Shown here: positions 8,710 through 46,730 of the stretch, one piece after another
Numbering within the stretch: the first letter of the stretch is position 1
How the letters are laid out: the number at the start of each line of letters is the position of its first letter
Assembly: GCA_030448025.1 (NCBI GenBank)
Contig: JAUJNQ010000002.1
Location: 406,971 to 462,982 of the forward strand
DNA length: 56,012 nt
Origin: Acidimicrobiales bacterium
GTDB lineage: Bacteria; Actinomycetota; Acidimicrobiia; Acidimicrobiales; GCA-2861595
Reading direction: 5' to 3'
The notes under the pieces: generated by a model
Databases searched by the model: none
What the model was told of the DNA's origin: nothing
Seen by the model: only the letters and a program-made list of their open reading frames with translations
Position numbers and translations under genes: made by a program

Positions 8710-8710
8710 G

Positions 8711-9342: not shown

Positions 9343-9391
9343 CCAACAGTGGCATCCCGTGCCCTTCAGGACCGCCCCGTGTCGCCTGGTG

Positions 9392-9421: not shown

Positions 9422-9493
9422 AGGCGCCGACCCACTCCGTTATCCACAGCTCGCCAGGGCCTGAAAAGCGCCTCTGACCTGCGCTGTTACCAG

Positions 9494-9567: not shown

Positions 9568-9749
9568 GGGGCATGCTGAAAAGGTGGCAGAAAACCCACC
9601 GGACCGATTCAGCGGCCTTGTCCAGCCGATTCTACCGGGCCGATCCGTGAGCCAACCGCTGGCCGGGGCCCGCGCCGGGTGACCAGCACCCCTGCCACTG
9701 CTAGGACGAGCGCGCCAAGTGGCCCTTGGGTCGTTTGGAGCGGACGGAC

Positions 9750-10125: not shown

Positions 10126-10534
10126 TGCGCTTGTCGAGCTGGATTCAAGTTCGAGGAAGATCCAGATAAAGTCGAGCAAGCCCATCTTCGCAGTAGGCGG
10201 CGACTACAACAGCATGGTCTCCGGATTGATGCGATCCGGCCGGGTAATCAGCGATGACGGCGCGAGCGTGATTCCTAATGACGGGGCGAGCTTCAGGCGG
10301 TAGCGCTCTTGGCAGTGGAGGCAACCCCTCCACGCCCCAGCGCCAGCCGCAGGCGGCCGCTACCCTCTCACTGGCCAGAGAACCAAGGATGACGGCGCCC
10401 CTTCCTTGATGAGGTCGCCGACACCGGACGACCATCAGGCCATGCCGAGCGGCTTGGTGGGTCGCTCAGTTCCTCGACGGAGCCGTGGACGAGGTCGCTC
10501 TGGCCCACTGAGCAACCGGGTTACACGTCTGCCA

Positions 10535-12421
10535 TCAGTTGCCGGCCACCACCTCGAGCGAAGGGGCGTCTGCCTGGTCCGAGCTCCCCGTCGCCGGCAA
10601 CAGCACCTCGACTTCCTCGCCCAAAGCACTGATGTCGAATGCCGAAGCGGCTTCGGTCTCCGGCGCGTCGCCCGCAGCCGGACGGAGGAGCCAGAGCAGG
10701 ACATCGGGTTCATCCGGGTCGGGCGTTCGAGACTCCACCCGACGAGGACCGAGGGAACCCTGGACGCTGACCTCATCCTTGGTGATGATGAGCTGAACCC
10801 TCTGAGTGGCCTGGTTCGAGACATCGACGGGAAACGTCTCCAGGCGCTCGCCGCGGCCCACTCCGAGCACCAACTGCTCCTCTCCGGGTGGGACGCGGAG
10901 CTGCACCTCGGCGGTCACAGTGGCGCCCCGGCGTCGTACCAACTGGTGGAGGTCACCGGGGGCGCCCTCGGTGAGCAGGTACGGCTTTCGTGAAGGGAAC
11001 AGGTCGAGGGCACGGAGATTGGCCCGATCGCCTCGATCGAGAGCCCACACCACTTTCTGATCGAACGACGGATTTCTCAGCTTGGTGAACGGTGTCATCA
11101 ACTGCGGTCCGTACCGCGGGAGGAAAACGATGGCACCGTCGAGCGGTCTCTCCTCGACGGGCGAGTGCAGTGCTCGCAAGCCTGTTGTCCGCTCTCGTTG
11201 ATCGCCAAGGGCCCCGGCGATCACCAACCCGCTGACGGCGGACATGCCGAGCAGGCCGAACCAGGCCAATCGGTGGTCAAGGTGCCAGAGACGGGAGAAG
11301 CCACCGGCTCCCAGGATGGCCAGCGGCACGAGAACCGGCAAGTAATAGAAGGGCCCGATTCGCCACGGGCCTTCGAGGCGGGTGAGCAGGTAGCTCCCCC
11401 AGAAGAGCAGGTAGCCGATCGGGATGGTGAGGGCGACCAGACCCATCCATCCTTCCAAGCCGGTCTTTCTGTGCCGGAGCGCAACCACGCTGAGGCCGAT
11501 CAGGACCAGGCCCCCGAAGCACCAGAAGCTGAGCAGCATCGAGTGGGTGAGGAGGCCATGCCACGCCTGGCCCGCGCCGAACTCCAGCTCGGGGTCCCAG
11601 GGAAAGACCCGCTTGGCGCCGAAGCCCAGTGTGTCGCTCTTGTCCAGGAGGTTGAACGGTGAGCGAAGGGGGCTCCCCGTGGCTGCTTTGAAGAAGGCCA
11701 GCATGGCCACCATAGGGGGGACTGTGCCCATGGCGAACGCGGCGACGTCCGGGATCAGGGTCCGCCAAGAGTGACGCCGGGAGATGACGAACAAGAACCC
11801 GAAGGGCAGGGCAAAGAGGACTGCGTCGAAGGGCCGGGCAAAGAAGGCCAAGCCAATCAAGCCGCCGCTGGCGACCAGCAACCATCTCGAGCTCTGTCGC
11901 ACTCCGCGCAGGAAGGACACGGCGAAACCTTCCAGGAGCAGGACGTTCGGTAGGTAGGAGAGGAAGGTGACCGACTGCATGAGGAAGAACGGTGAGAGAA
12001 CGACGAACAGGGATGCCAGAACAGAAGGCCAGCGACGGCCGAGCACCTCTCGGGCCAGCAGGTAGGTCAGGACCACCACACCGGCCGCCACCAATGCCTG
12101 GGCGGCGTGGTGGCTACCGGTGAGCAGGCGACCTACGGCTATCACCGCTGGCCATACAGGTGAGTACTTGGGCACGTAGTGATCGCCGGAGGTGATGCTC
12201 AGCCACGGGACGAATGCGTCGGCCTCAGCGGGCGGCGCCGGAGGGAAGAGGCGACCCTCTGTCAGGCTGTCGGCCTGGAGCAGGTACACGGTCTCGTCCT
12301 GGTTCACGCTGAGGTAAGGGAACAACGTCACCGATGCGAGAACGGCCCAGCCCGCGGCGAGGACAGCGAGGACGGCGACGACCACGTGCGGCCGATCTTG
12401 GACTGCTCTCAGGTCTGGCAC
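10535..12421 (-). CDS. GT-C fold membrane glycosyltransferase (ArnT/PMT-like)
   Basis: NQDETVY first-loop acidic motif, PKYSPVWP, FARPFDA, about 11 TM segments and an extracytoplasmic C-terminal domain. Confidence 0.75.
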   Translation of the reverse strand: MPDLRAVQDRPHVVVAVLAVLAAGWAVLASVTLFPYLSVNQDETVYLLQADSLTEGRLFPPAPPAEADAFVPWLSITSGDHYVPKYSPVWPAVIAVGRLLTGSHHAAQALVAAGVVVLTYLLAREVLGRRWPSVLASLFVVLSPFFLMQSVTFLSYLPNVLLLEGFAVSFLRGVRQSSRWLLVASGGLIGLAFFARPFDAVLFALPFGFLFVISRRHSWRTLIPDVAAFAMGTVPPMVAMLAFFKAATGSPLRSPFNLLDKSDTLGFGAKRVFPWDPELEFGAGQAWHGLLTHSMLLSFWCFGGLVLIGLSVVALRHRKTGLEGWMGLVALTIPIGYLLFWGSYLLTRLEGPWRIGPFYYLPVLVPLAILGAGGFSRLWHLDHRLAWFGLLGMSAVSGLVIAGALGDQRERTTGLRALHSPVEERPLDGAIVFLPRYGPQLMTPFTKLRNPSFDQKVVWALDRGDRANLRALDLFPSRKPYLLTEGAPGDLHQLVRRRGATVTAEVQLRVPPGEEQLVLGVGRGERLETFPVDVSNQATQRVQLIITKDEVSVQGSLGPRRVESRTPDPDEPDVLLWLLRPAAGDAPETEAASAFDISALGEEVEVLLPATGSSDQADAPSLEVVAGN

Positions 12422-13530: not shown

Positions 13531-14082
13531 TTGACGGGCCATGAGGCCTTCGATGACGTCCTGAGCGCCGCTCAGGCCAACGCCGGGTGGGCATTCCAGC
13601 GGCTGTTCGATGAGCTGGCTCGGCCGCTTGTCGGCTATCTGCGGGCGCAGGGAGGGCGCGAGCCTGACGACCTGGCCAACGAGGTGTTTCTCGGAGTGTT
13701 CTCCGGCATCGCCAACTTCCAAGGCAGCAAGGAGCAGTTCCGCTCCTGGGTCTTCACCCTCGCCCATCGTCGTCTCATCGATGAGCGTCGCAGGTTGGGA
13801 CGGCGCCCGGCGCTGGTCGACAGCGAGCCCGACGCCAATGTCAGCGGCGGGGACGCGGAGCACGACGCTCTGTGCTCGGCCGGCAACGAGCGAGTTCGAG
13901 AACTGCTTGCCCGCCTGGCACCCGACCAGCGCGACGTCCTGCTCCTCAGGGTCGTGGCCGACCTCACCGTGGAGCGGACAGCCCAGACCCTGGGTAAGAC
14001 GCCCGGAGCGGTCAAGGCTCTCCAGCGACGGGGACTGACAGCGCTTCGCAAGGAAATCACGCCAGAGGGCGTACCCCTTTGA
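13531..14082 (+). CDS. ECF RNA polymerase sigma-70 factor
   Basis: DDLANEVF..FRSWVFTLAHRRLIDERRR (region 2); LAPDQRDVLLLR..TAQTLGKTPGAVKALQRRG (region 4). Confidence 0.92.
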   Translation: MTGHEAFDDVLSAAQANAGWAFQRLFDELARPLVGYLRAQGGREPDDLANEVFLGVFSGIANFQGSKEQFRSWVFTLAHRRLIDERRRLGRRPALVDSEPDANVSGGDAEHDALCSAGNERVRELLARLAPDQRDVLLLRVVADLTVERTAQTLGKTPGAVKALQRRGLTALRKEITPEGVPL

Positions 14083-14897
14083 GCGTCCTCGGCGATGACC
14101 ATGACGAGATGCGAACGCAGCCCCTCCTCGACGATCACACAATCGAGTCGATCCTCGCCGGCCGTAGGTTTCCGGACCGACCCGAGGTCGACGAGCTGGC
14201 CAGCTTCGTCTCCGAGGTGCGCAGTGTCGCCGACGGGCCAGCTCCCAAACTGGGCGCAGATCTGACGACCATCCTGACGGGCGGCTTACCCAGGGGGAAA
14301 GTCGACCTGCCGGCGGCCGGGCTGGCGAAGAGGAGAAGGTCGAAGATCGAGGCCATCTCTGCCAGTGCCCTGGGCAAGGCGGCCGCAGTGCTGGCCGGCC
14401 TGGGCCTCGCCACCACGGGCGCGGCTGCGGCCGACGTGCTTCCCGAGGTCGCCCAGGACCGCGTGGCCGTCGTCGTCGAGGCAGTGAGCCCCTTCGACCT
14501 TCGCCACAGCGCTGACAAGGGCCAAGACGGCAAGCACCGCAAGGGTGGCGGCGCCGGCGCCGACATCAAGCCGGAGGTCCCCTTCGACCATGCCGACCCC
14601 AACGCCAAGGACAACCTCGGCGCCGATGTCTCCGATCGACCCCAGAGCACGGATGCCAAGGACAGGGACTTCGAACGGAGCCTGAGGGAGACAGCGCCCG
14701 GTCAGGCTCCGGCCACCAGGCCAACGGCGAGCAACCCCGGCACTGAGCGCAGGCAGAGCGCTCCCGGCCAGGCCCCCGCCGGCAGCCCGACGGCAGATAG
14801 CAGGTCCGGGACTCCGCACCGGCAGAGCGCTCCGGGCCAGCCCCCTGCCAGCGCGCCGGCGCCAGATGGCAGGCCCGGGGCGGCTCACCGTCGCTAA
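14079..14897 (+). CDS. Putative membrane anti-sigma factor with C-terminal QSAPGQ repeats
   Basis: Overlaps the sigma stop; single TM (AAAVLAGLGLATTGAAAA); three (T/S)APGQ(A/P)PA repeats. Confidence 0.6.
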   Translation: MSVLGDDHDEMRTQPLLDDHTIESILAGRRFPDRPEVDELASFVSEVRSVADGPAPKLGADLTTILTGGLPRGKVDLPAAGLAKRRRSKIEAISASALGKAAAVLAGLGLATTGAAAADVLPEVAQDRVAVVVEAVSPFDLRHSADKGQDGKHRKGGGAGADIKPEVPFDHADPNAKDNLGADVSDRPQSTDAKDRDFERSLRETAPGQAPATRPTASNPGTERRQSAPGQAPAGSPTADSRSGTPHRQSAPGQPPASAPAPDGRPGAAHRR

Positions 14898-15007: not shown

Positions 15008-15481
15008 CTACGGGGTGTCCTGGGACTTCCCCCGCATGCCTGCCACCGCCGAGCTCACCGCGTCGGTGTCGAGGATGTCCTCCATGACGCCGATCTGTGC
15101 CTCCCAGACGTCGTCCGGGATCGCCGTCTTGACCTCGTCCTCCAGGACGTGGAACACATCGAGGCCCAACTGGACCCCGGCCAGTGCACCTGCGTACGCC
15201 GGGTCTCCGAGAACCACCGTCTCTGCGGTGATCTCGGCGGCCTCGGCGTCCGGAGCACCGATGAGGACGATCAGGTCGTCCTTACCGTGCTGCTCCGAGA
15301 GCCGGAGTATCGACTCCTGGCTCTGCAGGTCCATGGCTCCTGCAGCCGTTCAGACGAAGCACTCGGTGGCGGAGAACACCACCTTGGCTCCGGCTGCTTC
15401 GGCACAGGCGCTGATCGCCGGCCCCGACACACCATCGCGCTCGCCGAGCGCGATGACCAACTTGTTCTCGAGCGTTTCCAT
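15008..15481 (-). CDS. grdA: Glycine/sarcosine/betaine reductase selenoprotein A (157 aa; Sec44, UGA at 15350-15352)
   Basis: METLENKLVIALGERDGVSGPAI..FSATECFV-U-TAAGAMDL..AETVVLGDPAYAGALAGVQLGLDVFHV; canonical CxxU motif, frame continues through the UGA. Confidence 0.95.
15319..15347 (-). promoter_or_regulatory. Candidate bacterial SECIS of grdA
   Basis: mRNA 3' of UGA: GG-CUGCAGG-AGCCAUGGA-CCUGCAG-AGCC, perfect 7-bp stem. Confidence 0.6.
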
Positions 15482-15484
15482 CGA

Positions 15485-15823
15485 CTAGCTCACCTCCTCG
15501 AGGTTCTCGTCCAACCATTCCTCCAACGCCGCCGCGGACAGGCTCGGGCCCGCCAACCGGCTCACCTCTTCGCCGTCGCGGAAGAGCAGGAACGCCGGCA
15601 ACCCCATGACCTTTAGCTCCATGCAGAGCCGCCGCGCCTTGGGCGCCTCCAGGGTCACCACCTTCACGTCCTGCTTCTCCTCGGCGATGCGCTCCACGTC
15701 GGGCATGAGGGCCAGGCAAGTGGTGCAGTCCGGCCCCCACATGTCGACCAATGTGGTGCCCTCGGACACCAGCTCCCTGAAGTTGTCCTTGGTTACCTCT
15801 GGCAACGTCCCTGGCAAAGTCAT
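15485..15823 (-). CDS. Thioredoxin of the glycine-reductase type (CTTC)
   Basis: VDMWGPDCTTC..RRLCMELKVMGLPAFLLFRDGEEV; lies between grdC and grdA. Confidence 0.9.
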   Translation of the reverse strand: MTLPGTLPEVTKDNFRELVSEGTTLVDMWGPDCTTCLALMPDVERIAEEKQDVKVVTLEAPKARRLCMELKVMGLPAFLLFRDGEEVSRLAGPSLSAAALEEWLDENLEEVS

Positions 15824-17253
15824 GCTCCTTCCGGGTTCTTCTCCAACAACACGCTCATGCCGTCCGACATCTGCGACATGCGCCCGAGGAAGAGGCTCCC
15901 CTTGGCGATCATCATCACCCGCTCGGCCTCGCCGCCCCGAAGGCGATCGAGGGCGTGGGGAAGATAACAGAGGGCCGACGCCAGGTGCCCCTGGGTGGGA
16001 GCGAAGCCGGGCATGCCCCGGGTGGCGGCGAAGTCGCTCAGCTCCTCCTTGGTGATGGCGCCGCTCCTGGCGGCCAGCGCGGCGATGGTGCGGTAGTTGC
16101 GCTCGGGCACGTTGCCCGATCCCTGAGGCTCGGTGATCTCGGGGTCGTGCAGCTCGGTTGCGTAGTCGTCCACCTCGGTCATGGGGATGCCCGCCCGCTG
16201 CAGCGGCTCCACCGCCAGCGCCTCCATGATCTGGGGGCTGGAGCCGCCGGCCGACACCCGGTGGCGGCCCACCACGTCGAGGCGGATGCGGGGCGAGGCG
16301 CCGTCGTCGGCCTCGATCAGCGCCGCCGACCCGCCCAGGACGTCCTCGAGCACCGGCATCTCGTGGCGCAGGTGACCCTGGAACTTCATGCCCAGCTTGG
16401 CGAGTGAGCCGCCCGCCACCACGGCCACCCGCTGGAACGTCCCCGAGGCCACCAGGGCGGCGCCCACCACCAACGCCGGGATGGGGGCGGCGCAGAAGTT
16501 CTTCACGTCCATGCCCGAAGCCTCGCTGAGCCCGGCCACCTCGGCCACCGCCTTGGCCATGTTGCCCCCGCCCCGCTGGTAGCGGTCGCCCACCGCCTCC
16601 TCGCCGCAGCCGATCACGTAGTCGATCGAGGCGGGGTCCACGTCGAGGTTGACGAGGAGGTGCAGGAGAGACAGGGTGGCGGTGGCCTTGGTGGCCAGGT
16701 TGTCCAGGAGCACGTACGCCGACAAGGCCTCGTCGGCTTCGTCTCCCCGTCGCATGGCCGCACCCAGGCGGTGGGCGCCGAGGTGCAAACCCAGCGCGCC
16801 GGGCTCAGCGGACACCTTCTCCACGTCGCCAACGGCTCGCTCGATGCGGTCCAGGTCGAGGTGCTTGGCCAGAGGGTGTCCGGCCAGGGCGGCGGCGGCC
16901 TGCTCGGCCACGTCCTCGGCGAGGACCAACAAGTCGAAGTGGTCCACCGCCGCCAGCAGGCCCAGGAGCTCGTCCTCGGGCATCAGCTCGCCGGACGGGG
17001 CGAAGCGCGACGCCTCGGGGTCGGTGGTCGCGAACCAGGGCCGCTCGGGCATGGCGCGTGGATGGATGGCGCCGATGTAGGCCTGGTGGGGCGGGTAGGC
17101 GACGGCCTGGTCGAAGGTGCGCAGCGACCCCAGGAACGACGACTCCACTTCGCCGTCCCTCGGCAGCTCCCGCCGGGGCTTCGAGCCGTGACGGGCCAGG
17201 CCGGGGGCGTGGGCGAGGACCTGGGCGGCCCCACTTATGACCGGGTTGCTCAT
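15820..17253 (-). CDS. grdC: Glycine/sarcosine/betaine reductase component C, GrdC (FabH/thiolase-like) subunit
   Basis: IDYVIGCGEEAVGDRYQRGGGNMAKAVAE, KNFCAAP, GGSLAKLGM, GFAPTQGH, KGSLFLGRM. Confidence 0.92.
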   Translation of the reverse strand: MSNPVISGAAQVLAHAPGLARHGSKPRRELPRDGEVESSFLGSLRTFDQAVAYPPHQAYIGAIHPRAMPERPWFATTDPEASRFAPSGELMPEDELLGLLAAVDHFDLLVLAEDVAEQAAAALAGHPLAKHLDLDRIERAVGDVEKVSAEPGALGLHLGAHRLGAAMRRGDEADEALSAYVLLDNLATKATATLSLLHLLVNLDVDPASIDYVIGCGEEAVGDRYQRGGGNMAKAVAEVAGLSEASGMDVKNFCAAPIPALVVGAALVASGTFQRVAVVAGGSLAKLGMKFQGHLRHEMPVLEDVLGGSAALIEADDGASPRIRLDVVGRHRVSAGGSSPQIMEALAVEPLQRAGIPMTEVDDYATELHDPEITEPQGSGNVPERNYRTIAALAARSGAITKEELSDFAATRGMPGFAPTQGHLASALCYLPHALDRLRGGEAERVMMIAKGSLFLGRMSQMSDGMSVLLEKNPEGA

Positions 17254-17254
17254 G

Positions 17255-18601
17255 TCATGCTCCGTCCGTGTTGTCGCTCGTGTCGCTGTGTTCGCCCTGG
17301 TTGCTCTGGTGGCTGCCGTCGAACACCGTGGGCTCGTCCACGGCCGTGGACAGCGCCACCAAAGCAGTCTCCACCAGCGTGCGCCGCCACGCCCGTTCCT
17401 GCTCGGTCCCGAGCGACGGGTCGCCCGTGGGGAAGGGGATCCCCCGGGTGGGCACGATGCGGGGTGCGCCGACCCTGGTGGCTATGGACACCAGGTTGCA
17501 CAGCAACGCCGTGGGGATCCCTCCCCTCTCCAGCTCCTTGGCAAGCGTTGACCCGCAACGCGTTCCGGTCCCTCACGTGGCAGTCAGGATGGCCGCCCGG
17601 ACCCCGGACTTGCGCAGGTCGGCCACCCATTCGGTGCCGAAGCGCTTGGCGTTGCCCACCGAGGTGCCGTTGCCCGCCGTCACCAGGTACTCGTGATGGA
17701 GCCGGCCGATGGCGCCCTCGCTCTCGAGCTGGCGTGCCACGTCGAGGGGCAGGATCCGCTGCGGGTCCTCGTTGGCCGCCACGGTGGAGAAGCCGCCGTG
17801 CACGGAGATGAACTCACCGGCGGGGAGCGAGTCCCTCCCCTCGATCGAGTAGTGGGCCCAACGAGTGGCTCGGGCCGACTCCAGCTTGTCGGGGTTGTCG
17901 GCCGGCACCACCGCTCCCTCGCTCACAAGGGCGACGGTGACCTCGGAGAGGTCCTCCACCGGAGGCGCGGGCGTCACCTTGTCGAAGTCGGGCAGCGGGA
18001 CCTCGGTGGCTTCCTTGTCGCCGCCCAACCGAGCCAACACCAGGGCCACGGCCCGACGGGCGGCATTCTGGTCCGCGACCCGGTTGCGACGGGGGGGCTT
18101 GCCCAGCCGACCCTCGGCCTCGGTGAGATCCTCACCGGCCGACAACTTCTTGACCGCGGCGGCCAGGGTCTCGAGCGAGGGGCCCATCTCTCTGGCCGCC
18201 TCCCCACTGCGCACCACCGGAGCGCCCGCGGCCTCGGCCAGGCCGGGGTTGTCCTGATGCATGGCGGCGACGACCGCCAGCCCCGCCTGGGTGGCGGCGG
18301 CGGCCAGGCGGCCGCAGGCCAGGCCGTAGCGGCCGCTCGAGAAGGCGGGCCCGATCACCACCACGTCGGGCTTGGCCTCCTTCACCAGGGCAAGGATCTC
18401 CCTCGCCGCCTCGGGTTCGCCGGCGGCGTAGTCGTCGCCGCACGAGACGGTGGCCACCACCTCGAAGTCGTCCCCGAGCAGCGCCTGGAGCTTCCGGCCG
18501 GGGCCCACCGCGCCATCGGTGCGGGCAGGCGGCGTGGACGCTGCGTCCTCGCCTCCGACCCCGGTGAAGAACTGGTTCAGGTAGTGGACGACTCGGGTCA
18601 T
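17255..18601 (-). CDS. grdB: Reductase selenoprotein B (GrdB/GrdF/GrdH family; 448 aa; Sec343, UGA at 17573-17575)
   Basis: MTRVVHYLNQFFTGVGGED..GPAFSSGRYG..SVHGGF..AAILTAT-U-GTGTRCGSTLAKELERGGIP..GAPRIVP..PTGDP; ORF-track pieces 17573-18979 and 17255-17506 are in the same frame. Confidence 0.93.
17540..17566 (-). promoter_or_regulatory. Candidate bacterial SECIS of grdB
   Basis: UGA + 11 nt, then GCGUUG-CGGGU-CAACGC (6-bp stem, G-rich loop), extendable by GGAA/UU-CC pairing. Confidence 0.7.
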
Positions 18602-19901
18602 GACGGCACCGTCTCCTTGCAGGTCAGGCAACCCCAACCGAGGGGACTCAGGGCACCGTAGAAAGCGGCGGTGGGCAGCTCCATCGGGTCCGTGGCGGGT
18701 TGGTCGACCAGCACCACCCGGTCGCCGCCGAGGGCGCGCTCGGTCTGGGCCAGCTTCACCTTCTCGTCGTAGTTGCCGGTGCTCACCATGGCGGTGGCCC
18801 GATTGGGAGGCACCACGATGGAAGGGGCGGTGCCGTCCGGGCCGGCCATCTCGGCGAACAGCCCCACGGCGGCGATGCCCAGCTCCTCGAGGCGGTCCAT
18901 CTTGAGGGCGACGTCGGCGTCGGCGTTCCCCCCGCCCTCCTTGGTGACCAGCGCGGCGTCGAAGCCGGCGTCGGCACACAGCCGAGCGGCGTGGGCCGAC
19001 ACCAGCTCTTTGCCGACCTGGTCGACGGGTTCGGGAGAGATGACCACCCCGGCGAAGTCGAGGTCGGTCCCGTGGCGATCGAGGAGGGCGGCCACCACCG
19101 GGTGGTTCTGGTAGAGGTACGTGGGGTTCTTGAGCGACGGATGGCCGAACTGGCCGCTCACCACCGCGCCGTCGTCCAGCTCGCCCGGACCGAGCAGCGT
19201 GGGCAGGGCCGCGGTGAAGCTTCGCCCGTAGACGAAGGTCTCCTTGAACGTCCCCTGCGTCTGCAGGTTGGTGATGGCGCCCACTCGGGGGAGACCGTCC
19301 TTTCCCCGCCCACCCGCTCGCAGCGGCGGGAGCGTTTCCTCGTGATCGGGCGGGGCGTCCAGGGCGGCGTCGGCGAGGTGGGCGGCCAGGGCCAGCATGC
19401 CCTGGCGCAGGCCGGCGCTCACCGCTCCCCAGTCGGCGCCCTCCGGCGGGTCGAACTCCACCACCAGGTTGTGGGTGTTGGCGAGGGGGCTGAGCTCGGC
19501 CATCGGCGCCGTCATGTCGACCACGGCCTCCTGGGCCCGTGGCAGGAAGCCGGCGGCCACCACGGCCGCACCCCGGAGCACGTGGGTCTGGCCTCTACCC
19601 TGCGGGCGGGCCGGGCCGAGCAGGCCGGGGAAGATGCCGGCGCCGCCCCGGCCCTTGGTGCGGGGCTCCACGGCGTCGAGGACCTTGACGATGCGGACCG
19701 ACTCCCCGGGCGAGGCCCACGTAGGCGCACCTCGCCCAGAGCCCCTTCACTGAAGTGCGCTCTGGCCTCGTCGGCGGAGACGGTGAGAGTTCCCGACGCG
19801 TAGCTGGTGCGCTCCCCGAGGGCGACGGAGGCAACCTCATGAACGAGCCGGCACAGGCCCCCGGTGGCGTTGCCGTCCTGCGCTGTCCGGGTCTGGGCCA
19901 T
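18598..19901 (-). CDS. Reductase component B non-seleno subunit (GrdE/GrdG/GrdI family, ~434 aa); 1-nt frameshift near 19722
   Basis: VHEVASVALGERTSYASGTLTV.. then -TWASPGESVRIVKVLDAVEPRTK..LQTQG..DGAVVSG..KNPTYLYQNHP..EGGGNADAD..STGN; TAGCGT -10-like box 7 nt before ATG 19901 (leaderless). Confidence 0.85.
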
Positions 19902-19977
19902 CATCCGGACGCTACCGCCCAGACCGGCCGGGACGGAACCCGGCTTGCAGCGAGGGGCCCTTGGGTAGGTGGTGTGG

Positions 19978-20166
19978 ATGGAGAACGACCCACCTCTGCC
20001 CCCCGACGACGGCCTCCTCGAACAGCTCCGTGACATGCCGGTCGGGGTCAACGACCCCAACATCATCGGCGACGCAGGCCCTACCGACGTCCCGCCCGGC
20101 ACCGACCCGCCGACTGCATCACGGGAGCCGGGTGGAGAGGTGGTCGAGGAGGAGCCGCTCGGCTGA
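19978..20166 (+). CDS. Small acidic Pro-rich hypothetical protein
   Basis: 62-aa ORF with high-GC3 codon usage, divergent from the grd operon. Confidence 0.5.
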   Translation: MENDPPLPPDDGLLEQLRDMPVGVNDPNIIGDAGPTDVPPGTDPPTASREPGGEVVEEEPLG

Positions 20167-21677: not shown

Positions 21678-22013
21678 TTGCGAAAGCTAGGATTGGTACT
21701 GCTGCCGGTTGTTCTGGCCATCGGGGCGTGTTCGGATAGCGAAGACACCACGGACGAGACGACGACAACCACCGTCGTAACCACGACCACCACAACCATA
21801 CCCACCACGACCACGGCGGTGCCCATACCGACCACAGCCGCTCCAGGCAGCAGCGGTCGGACGCCGACTACGGCAGCCACTCCACGATCAGGCGGCGTTT
21901 CCTACTCCAACTGCAGTGAGGCCCGGGCGGCTGGGGCCACTCCCATCAACCGGGGAGAGCCGGGCTACAGCTCGTCCCTTGATCGTGACAATGATGGAGT
22001 GGCCTGCGAGTGA
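21678..22013 (+). CDS. Lipoprotein with Thr-rich linker and Excalibur Ca-binding domain
   Basis: Lipobox IGA-C; YSNCSEARAAGATPINRGEPGYSSSLDRDNDGVACE. Confidence 0.88.
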   Translation: MRKLGLVLLPVVLAIGACSDSEDTTDETTTTTVVTTTTTTIPTTTTAVPIPTTAAPGSSGRTPTTAATPRSGGVSYSNCSEARAAGATPINRGEPGYSSSLDRDNDGVACE

Positions 22014-22204
22014 CCACGGCTAGGTCGTCCAAGTCCGCTGGCCAGGTGTACGAGTTCGTAAAGCAGCAGCTGAACAAACCGATTGACGATTCAATTTGGC
22101 GCTCGCCAAGGTCGCCGGGACGGTTGACGGGCTCGATGATGATCTGGTCAGGACCTTCGGAGGGAGACGGGTTCAGACGTGTGAGGTTGTTGGCTGAGAT
22201 CGAG

Positions 22205-22693
22205 TCAGCGCCCCGGCCCGTCCTCAGGACCGGAAGACCAAGGAATTCCGAGAGCCCTCGTGACTGTCCGGGCGGTCTGGACCCAGCTCTCGTTAGTCGC
22301 ATGGCCCTGTTCGAGGCCATTTATCAGAGCGGCAAGGCCACGCTCTCGGAGAGCAGAGTTTGAAGACTCTGGAAGTGCCCCAGGTGAGGATGGCGCCTCC
22401 GACGGTGGGTCTGGCGTTCTGCTAAGTGACACCACATTGGTTGGTCCGAGTTCAATAGGGGACCGGACGAGCCGAAGGAGCTGAGAAACGTCAAGACCCA
22501 ACAGGTCGGCCAGCGGCTTCCGGAAGCGCTCCTGGAGACTCGACTGTCCTCGTTCCCACCGCCCCACCGTCGCCGGTGTCGCCCCGACGGCCGAACCCAC
22601 GTCCTTCCGGCTCAGCCCGAGGTCTTCACGGGCGCGGCGCAAACCCGCACCTCCCGGTTGTTCTCTTGTTCGATCCGCCGCTGTTTCAGCCAA
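22205..22693 (-). CDS. XRE-family HTH regulator
   Basis: LRRAREDLGLSRKDVGSAVGATPATVGRWERG. Confidence 0.8.
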   Translation of the reverse strand: MAETAADRTREQPGGAGLRRAREDLGLSRKDVGSAVGATPATVGRWERGQSSLQERFRKPLADLLGLDVSQLLRLVRSPIELGPTNVVSLSRTPDPPSEAPSSPGALPESSNSALRERGLAALINGLEQGHATNESWVQTARTVTRALGIPWSSGPEDGPGR

Positions 22694-22962
22694 CGCTGTG
22701 CCCCAAATCGTGCTCTAAGCAGAGTACGACCGGCCTGTGACTGGTGCAAGGGGTCGGATCTCATCGCAGTTGTGGCCGATCTAGTGCCCAAACTAGTACG
22801 AAACGCATCGCCAGGGCTAGACATGGAACGTGGAATAACCTAGAATCACAGTACTGTGATTCGAACGTTGTGCCAAACGACCGCGAAACGTACACAAATC
22901 GACTTGCTCAGGCATTGCCCTCTATGCGACGATGACTCCCCCATCGGTGGAGGCAGCCTCCT

Positions 22963-23256
22963 ATGAGGATGGAGGAGCCAGCCGAGGAGGAACGGTCGTA
23001 CCAGGTCCCTGCTTGGCAACCAGGGAAACCGGACGAGGAGCAGGACATGGGAGACGGACAGCACGTGGCGCTGAATGGGGCTGGTGGGTCGGGCGAAGCC
23101 CCCGAGCCCACGATTGACCCACTCGGACCAAAGGGCAGCCATCCCGAGGTAGAAGCCTGGTTGGACGAACGCGAGCGCAGCGAGAAGCGACGCCGGCGGG
23201 AAGCCCGACTCGCGAACTACTTTGCCAGAGGTCGAGGTCGCTTGCTCCGGCGCTGA
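22963..23256 (+). CDS. Small hypothetical protein, acidic N-terminus and Arg-rich C-terminus
   Basis: 97-aa ORF with GGAGG upstream, ending 18 nt before the peptidase gene. Confidence 0.5.
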   Translation: MRMEEPAEEERSYQVPAWQPGKPDEEQDMGDGQHVALNGAGGSGEAPEPTIDPLGPKGSHPEVEAWLDERERSEKRRRREARLANYFARGRGRLLRR

Positions 23257-23274
23257 GTCCATATCCTGCGCTAC

Positions 23275-25080
23275 ATGGCTAAACCTGGGGATGACCTTTC
23301 ATCCCGTTCGTCAAATGGTCGGCAACTCCTCTTCTACGGCCCAGAGGACATCTCGACTTGGGAAGCCGGTCTCGCTGACTGCCTCGATCTTTCTGACGCA
23401 TCCGCTTGGTCCGATCTACAGGCTCGATATGAGACTGGGCGGAGCGAAAGAACGCACAACCTCTTACCGTGGCGCCGCTGTCTGCACGTGGCCCGAGCCA
23501 GTGGTGCGAAGTCAGCTGTAATAGAGCGCCGCTACATCTGTTATGACTACCAAAGCGAGTTTAGCGCTTTCTACGCCCACGTTCTGGCTGGCCTCCCTAC
23601 CACAAGTCACCGCATACACTTCTTCTCTTCACATGTAACCAAAGCCGATTATCGTGAGCTTAAGGGGGACCAGAAGGCCGGATATCTAGGCTATATAGTA
23701 TGCCGGCCCCGTGACCTTGAAATAGTAGGAAGGACCGTACTTAAACCGCCTCCTGGCTACCCAGTGCTAACAGCCGTGGAGGATACGCCAACCTTCTTTG
23801 GACAGGAACTGAAAGTTAACGGTGTCCCGTTCATGCAGCAGGACGAAAGACTGGGCGTTTGCGCCAACGTTGTCGCTTGGATGGTTCACTACACAGCCTA
23901 CCGGAAATCCCAAGTTAGCCGTCGCTTTGTTGCTGAGTTTCAGCGGCGAGCTCTCGACTTCTCGCCCAAGGCTGCAGTCGGCCTTGACCCTTTTGAGCTT
24001 CTTGGTCTCCTTGATGGAGTCGGATTTCGTACGGAGCTATTCCCACGTGACGCGAAGGATGACATACCGGAGACTCGTTATCCATGGGATCCAGAGCCTA
24101 CAGCGGGAAGTCTCTCGCTTAGTCCCATTTACCGGGAGAATCCCCCACCGCTGCTCGCTGGTCGAGACGGACTAATGAACGACTCGGAGCTCTTGGCACT
24201 CAAGCGTCGCTTGGTGGACGAGTGCTGTCGGAACCTGAACTCAGGTATCCCACTAATCGCTGACTCATTTGAGCATACGTTCGTCGTCTGCGGGTACCGT
24301 CTGACCGAAGGTGAGTCTGTGGCCAACTTCGTGGTGCAAGACGACCAAGTCGGGCCGTACATCAACGTCCCAGATTGTCTATTTGATCGTTATGACCTTC
24401 GGGAAGCTCAGGCGCTCAGCGTCACCGACCGAGCAGCCAGCCTTGCGGAGGTAAGCACGCACCTGTTTGCAGGAACGTCTCCTGACCCGTCGGAGGAGGG
24501 TCATTCTGAATGGTCTGACTGGATGGAGCTGCTTGTTCCCCTGCCCAGTCGGGTTTTTCTCAGGCTGCACGCAGCCGAGGCCGCCGCCCTGCGGTTGCTG
24601 ACCCTCAACTTTGCCGAAGCGGACAAGGGCGAAGCTGCGGGTCAGCCACAATTCCCCGAACTAGTTGCCCTCCTTAAGGCCCGGGCTAAGAATATGCTCC
24701 GCTTCCGAACGTACTTGGTCTCCGCCAATGAGTTCAAGGGTCGTGTTGTCGAGCGTGGAGCATGCCCGTCGCTAGTCACAGCGTATCGCTCGTTACGGCT
24801 TTCAGAGTGGGTTGCAGTGGTGGAGTTCGTTGATATTGAGGGCCCACTGTCAGCGCACCAGTGCTTAGGCGAGGCTGTGTTTGACGCCACGTCAAATCCA
24901 AAGAACCCCTGGGTACACGCCCTACGGCTCGGTACCTCAGTATCCATCGTGTATAGCAATGGAATCCACAAGACTATTGGAACAACCACTTCTTCGCTCC
25001 ACCCAGCTGCCCGGCCTTACCAGTCCTTGGACGGCCGGCTACTGATAGAGAAGAGCGACAGCGATGCCAATGCAGATTAA
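23275..25080 (+). CDS. Uncharacterised 601-aa protein with a papain/C39-like cysteine peptidase domain
   Basis: PFMQQDERLGV-C196-ANVVAWM, E-H334-TFVVCGY, VVQ-D356-DQVGPY; Q-C-H-D order of papain-fold enzymes. Confidence 0.7.
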   Translation: MAKPGDDLSSRSSNGRQLLFYGPEDISTWEAGLADCLDLSDASAWSDLQARYETGRSERTHNLLPWRRCLHVARASGAKSAVIERRYICYDYQSEFSAFYAHVLAGLPTTSHRIHFFSSHVTKADYRELKGDQKAGYLGYIVCRPRDLEIVGRTVLKPPPGYPVLTAVEDTPTFFGQELKVNGVPFMQQDERLGVCANVVAWMVHYTAYRKSQVSRRFVAEFQRRALDFSPKAAVGLDPFELLGLLDGVGFRTELFPRDAKDDIPETRYPWDPEPTAGSLSLSPIYRENPPPLLAGRDGLMNDSELLALKRRLVDECCRNLNSGIPLIADSFEHTFVVCGYRLTEGESVANFVVQDDQVGPYINVPDCLFDRYDLREAQALSVTDRAASLAEVSTHLFAGTSPDPSEEGHSEWSDWMELLVPLPSRVFLRLHAAEAAALRLLTLNFAEADKGEAAGQPQFPELVALLKARAKNMLRFRTYLVSANEFKGRVVERGACPSLVTAYRSLRLSEWVAVVEFVDIEGPLSAHQCLGEAVFDATSNPKNPWVHALRLGTSVSIVYSNGIHKTIGTTTSSLHPAARPYQSLDGRLLIEKSDSDANAD

Positions 25081-45339: not shown

Positions 45340-46323
45340 TCACCAGTTGCGGGGGGTTTCGAGCAGGTGATCCGGCCCGTCCTCATGGGACTCCAGCCAG
45401 CGCTCGGCGTCGATGGCGGCCATGCATCCCGAGCCGGCTGCGGTGACCGCCTGGCGGTAGACGTGGTCTTGTACGTCGCCACATGCGAACACACCGTCCA
45501 CGTTGGTCCGAGTGGTACCCGGCTTGGTGACGAGGTACCCGGAGTCCTCCATGTCGAGCGTGCCCTTGAAGACGTCGGTATTGGGAACGTGGCCGATGGC
45601 CACGAACAGCCCGGCGACCGCAAGCTCCGACTCCTCGCCGGTGACGGTGTTCAGCACCTTCACCCCGGACACGGCTCCGTCACCCAGGACCTCGGTGACC
45701 TTGGAGTCCCAGACGAACTCGATCTTGTCGTTCTTGTATGCCCGGTCCTGCATGATCTTCGACGCCCGCAGCTCCTTGCGGCGGTGAACCACGCTCACCT
45801 TTTCGGCGAACTTGGTGAGGAAGATCGCCTCTTCCAGGGCTGAGTCACCGCCACCGACCACGGCGATCTCCTCGCCACGGAAGAAGAAGCCGTCGCAGGT
45901 GGCACAGGTGGACACCCCGTGACCCATCAAGCGCTGTTCGCTGGGCAGGCCGAGGGTGAGGGCCCGGGCTCCGGTGGCGACGATGACGGTGCGGGCCTGG
46001 TACTCGTGGTCGCCGACCCACATGCGGAAGGGGCGGTCCGAGAAGTCGACCCGGCTCACCTTGGCCGTCAGGTACTCGGCACCGAAGCGGGCCGCCTGAG
46101 CACGGAAGGAGGCCATGAGCTCCGGACCCATGATGCCATCGACGAAGCCGGGGTAGTTCTCGACCTCGGTGGTGAGCATGAGCTGACCGCCGGGCTGGTC
46201 GCTGCTCGAAGAAGGTTCCCCCTCGATGACCAAGGGCTTCAGGTTGGCTCTGGCGGTGTACACCGCCGCCGTGAGCCCGGCTGGGCCCGAACCTATGATG
46301 ATGACGTCGCGGACGTCGGACAA
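45340..46323 (-). CDS. trxB: Thioredoxin-disulfide reductase
   Basis: [32 protein letters not shown]. Confidence 0.97.
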
Positions 46324-46328
46324 CGTGG

Positions 46329-46730
46329 CTACCTCGTGGTCGGAGTGGTGGTGGCCTTTCGAAGGAGGAACGCTCCCACGGCAGCGAAAAGTCCGCCGAC
46401 GGCCAGGTGGGCGATCCACACGTTTCCTTCCCCCGTGAACACGTCGATCACACGCACCAGCATCACCGCCACCAGGATGGCGACGACGATGCCCATGACG
46501 GCCGCAAGGAGGCCGAAGACCAGCGCCCGGGCGACCGTGACGAGCGGCACCGACGTCTTGTCGCGAACCTTGCCGACCAGGCGTTCGATGGTGTCTGCCG
46601 CTTGGACGGCCCAGTCGCCTTCGTCACCCGCTCCGGAGCCGGCTGCCGGAGCGCCGGCCACCGGTCCGCTCGTCACCGGAACACCGGTGGCGGGCCGGCG
46701 CGCCACAGGAGGTCGACCCGGCTGCACCAT
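46329..46730 (-). CDS. Hypothetical 2-TM membrane protein
   Basis: Two hydrophobic helices; abuts trxB. Confidence 0.65.

What the first reader, a model, noticed from the sequence alone, without database searches (positions are those of the whole stretch)
15008..19901. Non-canonical two-selenoprotein glycine/betaine-reductase-like operon in an actinobacterium
Seen: five tightly coupled genes (ATGA overlaps or 1-3 nt gaps), grdE/I-grdB-grdC-trx-grdA. In-frame UGAs sit exactly at the family Sec positions (CFVU; TATU), each followed by a hairpin; ORF callers split both genes. Known: Grd systems are characterised in anaerobic Stickland-fermenting Firmicutes and a few other anaerobes, where they cleave the C-N bond to give acetyl-phosphate. 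Inference: a minimal variant in a lineage not known for it, with three coordinated deviations (listed separately) that point to a different substrate and product. Best candidate here for an undescribed metabolic system.
Basis: partly seen in the sequence, partly recalled or inferred. Interest (0 to 1): 0.88.

Follow-up and report, generated by a model that had tools for sequence, protein, structure and literature searches.

The report
Unusual selenoprotein reductase operon in actinobacterium
A soil actinobacterium carries a five-gene, two-selenoprotein enzyme system related to glycine reductase that lacks three of that enzyme's hallmark parts, so it probably acts on a different compound and releases a different product.

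Summary
The operon is real. On the minus strand lie grdE-like, grdB-like (Sec), grdC, trx and grdA (Sec), joined by ATGA overlaps or gaps of 1-3 nt. The genome holds selA, selB, selD and tRNA-Sec. One thing this finding's text does not mention: grdE-like is frameshifted at 19722 in this assembly. Near-identical soil-metagenome contigs carry one extra base there that restores the frame, so it is an assembly error or a minority allele.

The B protein belongs to a monophyletic clade of 31 sequences (Acidimicrobiia, Thermoleophilia, Gemmatimonadales, Chloroflexota, Dormiibacterota). It scores far below the GrdB, GrdF and GrdH cut-offs. Three deviations are confirmed:
- The Sec motif is UxxGxxC, not UxxCxxC.
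- The GrdE-like protein has no Asn-Cys self-cleavage site, so no pyruvoyl group is expected.
- grdD was found in none of the 6 clade genomes tested (own included), nor in 5 GrdD-less genomes outside the clade.

The trx CxxC motif is not unusual. GrdD-less operons with a distinct GrdC subtype also occur in other phyla, some with canonical B proteins. The host has haem-copper oxidases and no ackA or pta.

Most likely this is a carbonyl-free, GrdD-independent reductase whose acetyl unit leaves GrdC as acetyl-CoA or acetate. Substrate and product are inferred, not shown. I class it as a new variant of a known kind.

The parts
19719..19901 (-). grdE-like, N-terminal 61 codons, in a different frame from the rest of the gene
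   Evidence: Translation. Homologous to the N-termini of intact relatives (40-71% identity where a hit was found). No Pfam hit on its own.
19722..19722 (-). Frameshift site: one base missing compared with relatives
   Evidence: DNA alignment A1 shows a one-column gap in the window only. Logan contigs of runs X1-X3 carry an inserted A or C behind 19722. X2 record 16 (238 nt) has 0 other differences apart from that one base.
18598..19728 (-). grdE-like, main part (protein B alpha/beta-type subunit) without the Asn-Cys self-cleavage site
   Evidence: Pfam PF09338 304.1 bits. NCBIfam GrdG 212.6 bits against a cut-off of 780, FarE 124 against 675. The site reads GQFGHPSLK where canonical proteins read GNCVSACDK.
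17255..18601 (-). grdB-like selenoprotein B, 448 aa, Sec at residue 343 in TATUGTGTRCG
   Evidence: Translation. PF07355 386.9 bits. TIGR01918 436.8 bits; GrdB 393.1 against 602.2, GrdF 448.6 against 800, GrdH 390.6 against 775. Clade monophyly.
17573..17575 (-). Sec codon (TGA) of grdB-like
   Evidence: Conserved in 31 of 31 clade members.
17545..17561 (-). SECIS-type hairpin of grdB-like: 6-bp stem, 5-nt loop
   Evidence: Present in 22 of 22 aligned sequences with one compensatory pair. Third codon positions invariant in 31 of 31. The homologous site in L053 matches Rfam SECIS_4 at 40.8 bits. The window itself has no Rfam match at E up to 1.
15820..17253 (-). grdC (protein C beta subunit) of the GrdD-less subtype; thiolase fold; invariant Cys254
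   Evidence: NF040746 561.1 bits against 450. Signature residues. AlphaFold model pLDDT 91.1; nearest PDB folds are OleA, FabH and thiolase.
15485..15823 (-). Grd-linked thioredoxin, WGPDCTTC
   Evidence: PF00085 60.6 bits. NF047697 86.5 bits, below its cut-off of 140. All 44 trx genes found in the loci carry a WGPxCxxC-like redox motif with variable inner residues; two have Sec at the first position.
15008..15481 (-). grdA selenoprotein A, 157 aa, Sec at residue 44 in CFVU
   Evidence: NF040748 203.9 bits against 130.
15350..15352 (-). Sec codon (TGA) of grdA
   Evidence: Conserved in all 23 clade loci with grdA.
15295..15347 (-). Two predicted hairpins behind the grdA UGA (weak support)
   Evidence: Minimum free energy -26 kcal/mol, z -2.33. 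No covariation support.
45343..46419 (-). trxB (thioredoxin reductase), likely electron donor, 25 kb away
   Evidence: TIGR01292 410.4 bits against 343.45. The link to the operon is inferred.

Best explanation
This is a functional thioredoxin-dependent reductase with two selenoproteins. It belongs to the glycine/sarcosine/betaine reductase (Grd) family but to a separate, uncharacterised subfamily that moves as a self-contained four- or five-gene module.

Shown:
- The genes, both Sec codons and the complete Sec machinery.
- Clade monophyly and purifying selection.
- The UxxGxxC Sec motif.
- No Asn-Cys processing site in the E-like subunit.
- No GrdD, AckA or Pta in the genome.
- A GrdC subtype that goes with the absence of GrdD.

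Inferred mechanism:
1. NADPH reduces TrxB, which reduces the operon's Trx, which reduces GrdA.
2. The unprocessed E-like/B-like pair has no pyruvoyl carbonyl. It therefore cannot bind a primary or secondary amine as a Schiff base.
3. It instead lets its selenolate attack a substrate X-CH2-COO- whose X leaves unaided. Betaine reductase does this with a quaternary amine, and fluoroacetate reductase does it with a halide.
4. The carboxymethyl group passes to the Sec of GrdA and then to Cys254 of the thiolase-fold GrdC as an acetyl thioester.
5. With no GrdD to make acetyl phosphate, the acetyl group leaves as acetyl-CoA (favoured) or as acetate.

The substrate is open. Glycine betaine is the best-named candidate, but the genome gives it no support. 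The frameshift in grdE-like is an assembly error or a minority allele.
For: Genes and families:
-.
- Sec machinery above curated cut-offs: selA 421.1 bits, selB 285.9, selD 327.2, tRNA-Sec 67.8.

Distinct subfamily:
- 31 sequences form one clade at 100 SH-aLRT on a stem of 0.55-0.58.
- The B protein scores 393, 449 and 391 bits against cut-offs of 602, 800 and 775 for GrdB, GrdF and GrdH. Controls pass: L062 scores 740 as GrdB and L082 scores 804 as GrdF.
- Eight true GrdH sequences nest elsewhere in the tree.

Carbonyl-free B component:
- The E-like site has no Cys in the window or the 12 clade members aligned. Canonical proteins read GNCVSACDK and GrdI reads GSFMPCSSK.
- A passage of PMC10838667 states that GrdI and FarE lack the two processing cysteines and are not proproteins.
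- The Ser of STUG is Ala in 30 of 31 clade members. The motif is UxxGxxC in 31 of 31.

No GrdD:
- Own genome.
- 0 of 5 other clade genomes and 0 of 30 clade loci.
- The tblastn query was verified as GrdD at 588.6 bits against a cut-off of 350.

GrdC subtype:
- K25, R224, Y225, K251 and K290 occur in 40 of 40 GrdD-less GrdCs; H369 in 38 of 40 and S379 in 37 of 40. The 23 GrdD-linked GrdCs read T, M, N, R, N, Q and A at those places: M224 in 21 of 23, the other six in all 23.
- The 23 GrdD-linked GrdCs form one split at 100 SH-aLRT.
- The model has a thiolase, FabH or OleA fold, and Cys254 is invariant.

No route for acetyl phosphate:
- No ackA or pta in the own genome.
- ackA in 1 of 13 same-family relatives and 0 of 5 other clade genomes.

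The module is retained and constrained:
- GrdC is found in 18 of 21 same-family genomes. Leaving out the eight genomes flagged as unpublished, it is 13 of 13.
- dN/dS against L021 is 0.18-0.24 for the main part of grdE-like, grdB and grdC.
- No other conserved neighbour.

Frame restored elsewhere:
-.
- Intact relatives at 86-91% identity are 427-437 aa long.
Against: - No biochemistry exists for any member. Substrate, product and even activity are inferred.
- The gene is broken in this assembly. In run X1 only 10.9 of 33.9 depth units show the restoring base, so the broken allele may be real in part of the population.
- Known glycine betaine uptake systems were not found in the own genome: BCCT in 0 of 22 genomes and no OpuAC.
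- The GrdD-less GrdC subtype also accompanies canonical B proteins (Asn-Cys and UxxCxxC) in L057, L094 and L100. L061 and L097 are similar cases, but I did not read their E-site rows in the cut output, and L097 reads UxxDxxC. GrdD absence therefore does not itself imply a new substrate.
- 3 of 5 GrdD-less genomes outside the clade hold ackA.
- The signature residues separate groups that are also separate lineages, so they may be lineage markers.
- Two of 30 clade loci (L025, L037) show no grdA or trx within 3.7-4.3 kb downstream of grdC.
- The grdA SECIS lacks covariation support.
- The host carries three COX1 genes. Characterised Grd enzymes come from anaerobes and are oxygen-sensitive (a passage of PMC13688921).
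Confidence: 0.6

Rival explanations
1. It is a glycine betaine reductase. The unprocessed E-like/B-like pair does the job of GrdI/GrdH, giving trimethylamine and a C2 unit.
For: The processing site has an aromatic residue where the cleavage Cys would be, as in true GrdI: GQF or GQY in the clade against GSF in GrdI. No carbonyl source is present. Betaine is the one characterised Grd substrate that needs no Schiff base (a passage of PMC10838667).
Against: The GrdH model gives the lowest of the three equivalog scores, 390.6 bits against a cut-off of 775. True GrdH sequences keep UxxCxxC and sit in the Firmicute radiation, far from the clade. BCCT was found in 0 of 22 relatives including the own genome. 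OpuAC is absent from the own genome and present in only 3 of 13 same-family relatives, although the operon is in 18 of 21.
Confidence: 0.17
2. It is an ordinary glycine reductase that makes acetyl phosphate. GrdC alone, or the genome's PlsX-like protein, does the work of GrdD.
For: GrdA and GrdC pass their equivalog cut-offs. GrdD-less operons with canonical B proteins exist, so GrdC alone may be enough there. A weak GrdD-like match of 21.2 bits lies in a 400-aa frame on contig C9. That it is PlsX is my guess.
Against: There is no Asn-Cys site and no Ser in STUG, so neither proposed carbonyl source is present. GrdB scores 393 bits against 602. The own genome has no ackA or pta. The clade sits on long stems in both the B and C trees.
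Confidence: 0.12
3. The operon is decaying in this organism: a pseudogene cluster left over from a horizontal transfer.
For: grdE-like is frameshifted in the assembly. In run X1 part of the depth lacks the restoring base. Only 1 of 4 other genomes of the same genus has GrdC. Integrase, relaxase and recombinase remnants and two tRNA genes lie nearby.
Against: Contigs identical over 238 nt carry the restoring base. In X2 and X3 all depth at that place has an inserted base. The other four genes are intact, with both Sec codons and the grdB hairpin kept. dN/dS is 0.18-0.24. GC3 is 0.88-0.93 in the operon's ORFs.
Confidence: 0.06
4. The TGAs are plain stops and the fragments are separate small genes.
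For: Table 11 gives separate ORFs.
Against: Sec machinery is complete. Full-length family models match across both TGAs. The TGAs are conserved at the family's Sec positions in every clade grdB (31 of 31) and every clade grdA found. The hairpin is conserved at the RNA level.
Confidence: 0.01

Closest known systems
Glycine reductase GrdABCDE with Trx/TrxB of Stickland-fermenting Clostridia (characterised in Eubacterium acidaminophilum and Clostridium sticklandii; recalled, and in passages of PMC13188914 and PMC10838667)
   Same: Selenoprotein A with CxxU. Selenoprotein B with Sec in a (S/A)TUG context and the family's SECIS hairpin. An E-type partner subunit. GrdC. A Grd-type thioredoxin in the operon.
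   Different: No GrdD. The E-like subunit has no Asn-Cys cleavage site. The motif is UxxGxxC, not UxxCxxC. Gene order is E-B-C-trx-A, not trx-E-A-B-C-D. The host respires oxygen and lacks ackA and pta. The B protein scores 393 bits against the equivalog cut-off of 602.
Betaine reductase GrdH/GrdI
   Same: The partner subunit is not a proprotein, with an aromatic residue at the place of the cleavage Cys. It presumably has no carbonyl and so uses a substrate with its own leaving group.
   Different: GrdH keeps UxxCxxC and nests among Firmicute GrdB and GrdF. The window's B protein scores 390.6 bits against a cut-off of 775. No betaine transporter of the BCCT or OpuAC type was found in the genome.
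Fluoroacetate reductase FarEB of Cloacibacillus porcorum MFA1 (PMC10838667, passages read)
   Same: A Grd B-type pair with an unprocessed E subunit and an altered Cys pattern next to Sec. It is proposed to work with GrdA.
   Different: The FarE model scores 124 bits against a cut-off of 675. FarB is said to lack both cysteines of CxxC, whereas this clade keeps the second. The far operon carries a transporter and an Fe-S oxidoreductase. This module carries GrdC, Trx and GrdA instead.
Uncharacterised GrdD-less E-B-C-trx-A operons of Desulfobaccales, Dehalococcoidia, Armatimonadota and candidate-phyla bacteria (loci L053, L056, L057, L060, L066, L086, L090, L094, L097, L100)
   Same: Same gene order. 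Same GrdC subtype (K25, RY224-225, K251, K290; H369 in most). No GrdD in 5 of 5 whole genomes tested. The Desulfobaccales group and L086 also have UxxG and no Asn-Cys.
   Different: Only 44-50% identity in the B protein. Several keep canonical Asn-Cys and UxxCxxC. 3 of 5 of these genomes have ackA. Cys429 of GrdC is confined to the window's clade.
D-proline reductase PrdAB
   Same: Distant homology of the Sec-bearing region and of the pyruvoyl-type partner.
   Different: PrdB scores 73.7 bits against 300 and PrdA 34.3 against 700. PrdAB has no GrdA or GrdC partners.

Membership tests
Grd complex (glycine/sarcosine/betaine reductase), family level | Selenoprotein A with a CxxU redox motif | tested here: met
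   NF040748 203.9 bits against 130; CFVU with TGA at 15352..15350.
Grd complex, family level | Selenoprotein B subunit of the GrdB/F/H/PrdB superfamily with in-frame Sec | tested here: met
   TIGR01918 436.8 bits against 65.45; PF07355 386.9 bits; Sec at residue 343.
Grd complex, family level | Protein C beta subunit GrdC | tested here: met
   NF040746 561.1 bits against 450.
Grd complex, family level | Protein C alpha subunit GrdD (forms acetyl phosphate) | tested here: not met
   Best hit 21.2 bits against 350 in a genome rated 98% complete. tblastn with a verified GrdD finds nothing better than E 0.014.
Grd complex, family level | Thioredoxin system as electron donor | tested here: met
   trx lies in the operon. 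trxB is at 45343-46419 with 410.4 bits against 343.45. The functional coupling was not tested.
Grd complex, family level | Sec decoding machinery in the genome | tested here: met
   selA, selB, selD and tRNA-Sec are all above their cut-offs.
Glycine reductase proper (GrdB/GrdE) | GrdB equivalog score | tested here: not met
   TIGR01917 393.1 bits against 602.2. The control L062 scores 740.1.
Glycine reductase proper (GrdB/GrdE) | GrdE proprotein with an Asn-Cys self-cleavage site that gives a pyruvoyl group | tested here: not met
   The window reads GQFGHPSLK where canonical proteins read GNCVSACDK. No Cys in the window or the 12 clade members aligned. Actual processing is not testable here.
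Glycine reductase proper (GrdB/GrdE) | UxxCxxC motif at the Sec | tested here: not met
   UxxGxxC in 31 of 31 clade members.
Sarcosine reductase (GrdF/GrdG) | Equivalog scores | tested here: not met
   GrdF 448.6 bits against 800 and GrdG 212.6 against 780. The control L082 scores 804.4.
Betaine reductase (GrdH/GrdI) | GrdH equivalog score and placement in the tree | tested here: not met
   390.6 bits against 775. Eight true GrdH sequences form their own clade inside the Firmicute radiation.
Fluoroacetate reductase (FarEB) | FarE equivalog score | tested here: not met
   124 bits against 675.
D-proline reductase (PrdAB) | PrdB and PrdA equivalog scores | tested here: not met
   73.7 bits against 300 and 34.3 against 700.
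Grd complex, any member | Reductive C-X cleavage activity and the identity of its product | not testable with these tools
   Needs reconstitution or labelling.

The most novel reading that the evidence does not exclude
Aerobic soil bacteria of at least four phyla share a mobile selenoenzyme module that reductively cleaves a so far unrecognised X-CH2-COO- compound without a pyruvoyl cofactor. X would be a quaternary ammonium or sulfonium group, a halide, or another group that leaves unaided. The thiolase-fold GrdC then hands the C2 unit straight to CoA. This would be a GrdD-free, acetyl-phosphate-free branch of Grd chemistry that feeds acetyl-CoA into aerobic metabolism. It would also help explain why these lineages keep selenocysteine.
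Probability: 0.33. Interest if true: 0.85.

Novelty: new variant of a known kind. Interest (0 to 1): 0.72.

Why it matters
- Habitat and lifestyle. Grd enzymes are textbook energy-conserving selenoenzymes of strict anaerobes. Here a deep-branching relative is kept under purifying selection in 18 of 21 genomes of one Acidimicrobiales-type family and in Thermoleophilia, Gemmatimonadales, Chloroflexota and Dormiibacterota. The clade's records are metagenome-assembled genomes. In the window's own order every genome searched encodes haem-copper oxidases (22 of 22), and ackA was found in only 1 of the 18 other clade-related genomes tested and not in the window's own.
- Mechanism. The module lacks the cofactor-forming site and the subunit that define the known mechanism. 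It should therefore reveal how far selenoether chemistry can be re-used, and what GrdC can do alone.
- Annotation. Public pipelines label these genes generically as glycine or sarcosine reductase. Metabolic reconstructions of soil metagenome-assembled genomes, including calls of a reductive glycine pathway, are probably wrong for them.
- Broader lead. GrdC splits into a GrdD-linked and a GrdD-less type across phyla. This split is testable and was not mentioned in the papers I searched.

Tried and rejected
- Expression: the look-up of sequencing runs listed no RNA holder, so nothing can be said about expression.
- Regulation: no Rfam riboswitch or other cis-RNA lies upstream of the operon in the window or in 12 related loci. 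There are no sigma-70-like promoters, and the one terminator-like site is on the other strand and within chance expectation.
- Substrate clues from neighbours: clustering all ORFs of 31 loci found nothing conserved beyond the five genes. The next best cluster is shared by 4 loci. High-GC antisense shadow ORFs had to be ignored.
- Paralogues: there is no second grdA, grdB, grdC or grdE in the genome. A second Grd-type trx stands alone on contig C2.
- Solved structures: none for the B or E proteins by sequence. The GrdC model gives only the general thiolase-superfamily fold (TM about 0.5), not residue-level contacts. The idea that the GrdD-less signature residues line a CoA or phosphate site therefore stays untested.
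- I rejected the trx CTTC motif as a deviation.
- I considered programmed frameshifting at 19722 and rejected it. Relatives and metagenome contigs simply have one more base.
- Literature: nine searches found no paper on Grd genes in Acidimicrobiia, Thermoleophilia or Gemmatimonadota, or on GrdD-less systems. I read passages only, never whole papers, of PMC1794560, PMC13188914, PMC10838667, PMC13688921, PMC7547702, PMC12827605 and 10.64898/2026.09.02.748891. Supplements were not opened. The supplementary tables of PMC1794560 (species lists) and PMC7547702 (gene lists) could bear on the claim that this lineage is not known for Grd. D. desulfuricans G11 has both C subunits, according to a figure legend.
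- Failed calls: script one search failed because MAFFT refuses the letter U, and I reran it with --anysymbol.

Full report
**1. What is in the window**

Read on the minus strand with TGA as Sec, the region holds five co-directional genes:

| Gene | Coordinates | Note |
|---|---|---|
| grdE-like | 19901..18598 | frameshifted at 19722 |
| grdB-like | 18601..17255 | 448 aa, Sec343, TGA at 17575..17573 |
| grdC | 17253..15820 | 477 aa |
| trx | 15823..15485 | 112 aa |
| grdA | 15481..15008 | 157 aa, Sec44, TGA at 15352..15350 |

The junctions are an ATGA overlap, a 1-nt gap, an ATGA overlap and a 3-nt gap. Table 11 splits grdA and grdB at the TGAs.

Pfam and NCBIfam assign all five genes:
- GrdA: NF040748, 203.9 bits against a cut-off of 130.
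- GrdC: NF040746, 561.1 bits against 450.
- B protein: family-level TIGR01918, 436.8 bits against 65.45.
- E-like protein: PF09338, 304.1 bits.
- trx: PF00085, 60.6 bits.

**2. A frameshift this finding's text does not mention**

The first 61 codons of grdE-like are in a different frame from the rest. Five relatives have one more base exactly there, in a Ser codon (alignment A1).

Assembled contigs of four soil-metagenome runs were laid on the operon. At 19722 they carry an inserted A or C.
- In X2 and X3 all the depth at that place has an inserted base: 78.9 + 27.1 of 106, and 11.8 + 8.54 of 20.4.
- In X1 only 10.9 of 33.9 has it.
- One 238-nt contig of X2 differs from the window by nothing else.
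- X5 does not cover the place.

The nearest intact homologues (86-91% identity) are 427-437 aa long, which fits a repaired length of about 434 aa. I therefore read the frameshift as an assembly error or a minority allele, not as programmed frameshifting. Raw reads were not available.

**3. Are the UGAs read as Sec?**

The genome is 2.70 Mb in 13 contigs and is rated 98% complete. It has:
- selA (421.1 bits) and selB (285.9 bits), side by side on the window's own contig.
- selD (327.2 bits).
- tRNA-Sec (67.8 bits against a gathering score of 47).

The grdB TGA is kept in 31 of 31 clade members. The grdA TGA is kept in the window and in all 23 clade loci where grdA was found.

Behind the grdB UGA, a 6-bp stem with a 5-nt CGGGK loop starts 14 nt downstream. 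It is present in 22 of 22 aligned sequences, with one compensatory G-C to U-A change in two relatives from outside the clade (L053 and the canonical L062). The synonymous third positions of codons +4 to +9 are invariant in 31 of 31 sequences, including CGT and TCA/GCA. Flanking codons use three or four different bases. The homologous site of L053 reaches Rfam SECIS_4. The window's own does not, even at E up to 1.

For grdA the window folds into two hairpins (z -2.33). Neither RNAalifold nor pair counting finds support in 22 sequences.

**4. Relatives**

A scan of one genome per species confirmed 544 relatives of the B protein and kept the best 80. Thirty form a sharp group at 57-87% identity. 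After that, identity drops to 50% or less.

By record title the thirty are:

| Taxon in record title | Loci |
|---|---|
| Acidimicrobiia or Acidimicrobiales | 12 |
| Actinomycetota | 4 |
| Actinomycetes | 2 |
| Solirubrobacterales or Thermoleophilaceae | 4 |
| Egibacteraceae | 1 |
| Gemmatimonadales | 4 |
| Chloroflexota | 2 |
| Dormiibacterota | 1 |

All thirty are metagenome-assembled genomes.

The order E-B-C-(trx)-A holds wherever the contig allows.
- trx lies between grdC and grdA in 12 of the 23 loci that have grdA.
- L025 and L037 show no grdA or trx within 3.7-4.3 kb downstream of grdC.
- Nothing else is conserved next to the operon.

The 31 B proteins form one clade at 100 SH-aLRT on a stem of 0.55-0.58 substitutions per site. 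These are quick trees under LG+G4, and the tool warns about long branches.

In the window's own taxonomic family, GrdC is in 18 of 21 other genomes. It is in 0 of 19 genomes of other families of the order, and in 1 of 4 other genomes of the genus. Eight of these genomes are flagged as unpublished. Without them the family count is 13 of 13.

selA is wider spread, in 29 of 41 genomes. Sec use in this order therefore does not hang on this operon alone.

dN/dS against L021 is 0.18-0.24 for the main part of grdE-like, grdB and grdC, and 0.43 for the 60-codon N-terminal piece.

**5. The deviations**

(a) B protein. The window scores as follows, far below every equivalog cut-off:

| Model | Window (bits) | Cut-off (bits) |
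|---|---|---|
| GrdB | 393.1 | 602.2 |
| GrdF | 448.6 | 800 |
| GrdH | 390.6 | 775 |

Controls behave as expected: L062 scores 740 as GrdB and L082 scores 804 as GrdF.

The Sec context is TATUGTGTRCG in the clade: UxxGxxC in 31 of 31, with Ala in place of the Ser of STUG in 30 of 31. Canonical GrdB and GrdF, and eight true GrdH sequences, read TSTUGTCTRCG (one GrdH has L for the R).

(b) E-like protein. Canonical GrdE and GrdG read GNCVSACDK at the self-cleavage site. The clade reads GQ(F/Y)GHPxLK with no Cys. True GrdI reads GSFMPCSSK. A passage of PMC10838667 says that FarE, like GrdI, lacks the two cysteines needed for processing and is not a proprotein. It also names the Ser of STUG as another possible carbonyl source. 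Both candidate sources are missing here.

(c) GrdD. I found none in the following:
- the own genome;
- any of 30 clade loci (the query was verified as GrdD);
- five other clade genomes.

(d) trx. All 44 trx genes found in the 80 loci carry a WGPxCxxC-like motif whose inner residues vary; two of them have Sec at the first position. The window's CTTC is therefore not a deviation.

**6. The wider picture of GrdD**

GrdD was found in 23 of 80 loci. All but L059 show the order (trx)-E-A-B-C-D as far as the contig reaches.

Operons ordered E-B-C-(trx)-A without GrdD also occur in Desulfobaccales, Dehalococcoidia, Armatimonadota and candidate-phyla bacteria. In 5 of 5 of their whole genomes no GrdD was found. 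L057, L094 and L100 keep canonical B components (Asn-Cys and UxxCxxC). L061 and L097 score above the GrdB cut-off, but I did not read their E-site rows in the cut output, and L097 reads UxxDxxC.

GrdC falls into two types. The table gives the commonest residue; the counts follow it.

| Position (window numbering) | 40 GrdD-less GrdCs | 23 GrdD-linked GrdCs |
|---|---|---|
| 25 | K | T |
| 224-225 | R, Y | M, N |
| 251 | K | R |
| 290 | K | N |
| 369 | H | Q |
| 379 | S | A |
| 463 | S | F |

K25, R224, Y225, K251 and K290 hold in 40 of 40 GrdD-less GrdCs. H369 holds in 38, S379 in 37 and S463 in 36 of the 40. On the GrdD-linked side M224 holds in 21 of 23 and the other residues in all 23.

The 23 GrdD-linked GrdCs are one split at 100 SH-aLRT. 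Cys254 is invariant. Cys429 is confined to the window's clade.

These groups are also lineages, so the residues may be lineage markers rather than functional ones.

In the B tree the clade groups at 98 SH-aLRT with L086, L058 and the Desulfobaccales group plus L059. In every one of these that I aligned, the E partner lacks Asn-Cys.

**7. The host**

- The genome has three COX1 genes, and COX1 is in 22 of 22 relatives.
- It has no ackA and no pta.
- ackA is in 1 of 13 same-family relatives and in 0 of 5 other clade genomes. It is in 3 of 5 GrdD-less genomes outside the clade.
- trxB lies 25 kb away in the window.
- No BCCT transporter was found (0 of 22). No OpuAC-type binding protein is in the own genome, and only 3 of 13 same-family relatives have one.
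- The runs that hold the stretch are soil metagenomes of two studies.

**8. How it most likely works**

Shown: the parts list above. Everything below is inferred from the established Grd mechanism, recalled from Andreesen's reviews and seen in passages of PMC13188914.

1. NADPH, TrxB and Trx reduce GrdA.
2. The unprocessed E-like/B-like pair has no carbonyl. It probably uses a substrate whose leaving group departs unaided, as betaine reductase and fluoroacetate reductase do.
3. The carboxymethyl selenoether on GrdA is turned into an acetyl thioester on GrdC.
4. GrdC has a thiolase, FabH or OleA fold (model pLDDT 91.1; Foldseek E about 1e-10, TM about 0.5; phmmer match to a thiolase). It has an invariant Cys254.
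5. With no GrdD, AckA or Pta, release as acetyl-CoA by thiolase-like transfer, or as acetate, is more plausible than release as acetyl phosphate.

The loop that carries the RY signature (residues 219-229) is the only low-confidence stretch of the model.

Glycine betaine is the best-named candidate substrate, but the transporter searches and the tree speak against it. I put about 0.6 on this overall reading and about 0.9 on the narrower claim that this is a functional Grd-family selenoenzyme of a distinct subfamily.

**9. Novelty**

Public pipelines already call these genes glycine, sarcosine or betaine reductase component B, glycine reductase, or sarcosine reductase. The family membership is therefore not new.

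What I did not find in nine full-text searches is any account of:
- this clade;
- Grd genes in these aerobic soil lineages;
- GrdD-less systems;
- the two GrdC types.

I read passages only and no supplements. I class the finding as a new variant of a known kind.

Noticed in passing
window 29144-43871: The chromosomal replication-origin neighbourhood: gyrA, gyrB, recF, dnaN and dnaA on the minus strand, then yidC, parA and parB on the plus strand. All were verified with Pfam. The grd operon lies about 17 kb from dnaA.
   Followed up: partly
window 4480-9567 and 22000-28000: Remnants of mobile elements flank the operon's wider region: a TrwC relaxase fragment, a tyrosine integrase, a PIN toxin, tRNA-Ala (9493-9567), a recombinase zinc-ribbon ORF and tRNA-Ile (27899-27975). 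GC drops to 57-62% at 22-28 kb against 72% in the operon. Only 1 of 4 other genomes of the genus has GrdC, so the operon may sit in a variable island.
   Followed up: no
G000:C2:29562-29966: A second Grd-type thioredoxin (WGSDCRPC), 66% identical to the operon's trx, stands alone with no grd genes nearby.
   Followed up: partly
loci L053, L056, L057, L060, L061, L066, L078, L080, L086, L090, L094, L097, L100: GrdC splits across phyla into a GrdD-linked type and a GrdD-less type with fixed residue differences. GrdA shows two matching differences: E14/D78 against D14/E78.
   Followed up: partly
L059 (Desulfosporosinus paludis chromosome), about 4831-11847: A cultured Firmicute carries a B protein with UxxGxxC and an E partner without Asn-Cys next to trx-grdA-grdC-grdD. 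It has a second grdB-like gene elsewhere. It may be the most tractable organism for studying a carbonyl-free relative of this clade.
   Followed up: no
L071 and L084, trx genes: Grd-linked thioredoxins with an in-frame TGA at the first position of the redox motif (UxxC), i.e. likely selenoprotein thioredoxins.
   Followed up: no
window 13534-14894: An ECF sigma factor and a downstream 271-aa protein with no Pfam hit (possibly an anti-sigma factor) lie just downstream of grdA on the opposite strand. This pair is not conserved next to the operon in relatives.
   Followed up: partly
window 15008-20100, runs X1-X3 and X5: Many single-base differences, and a second inserted base (C) at 19722, show that several closely related strains carrying the operon co-occur in the same soil samples.
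   Followed up: no
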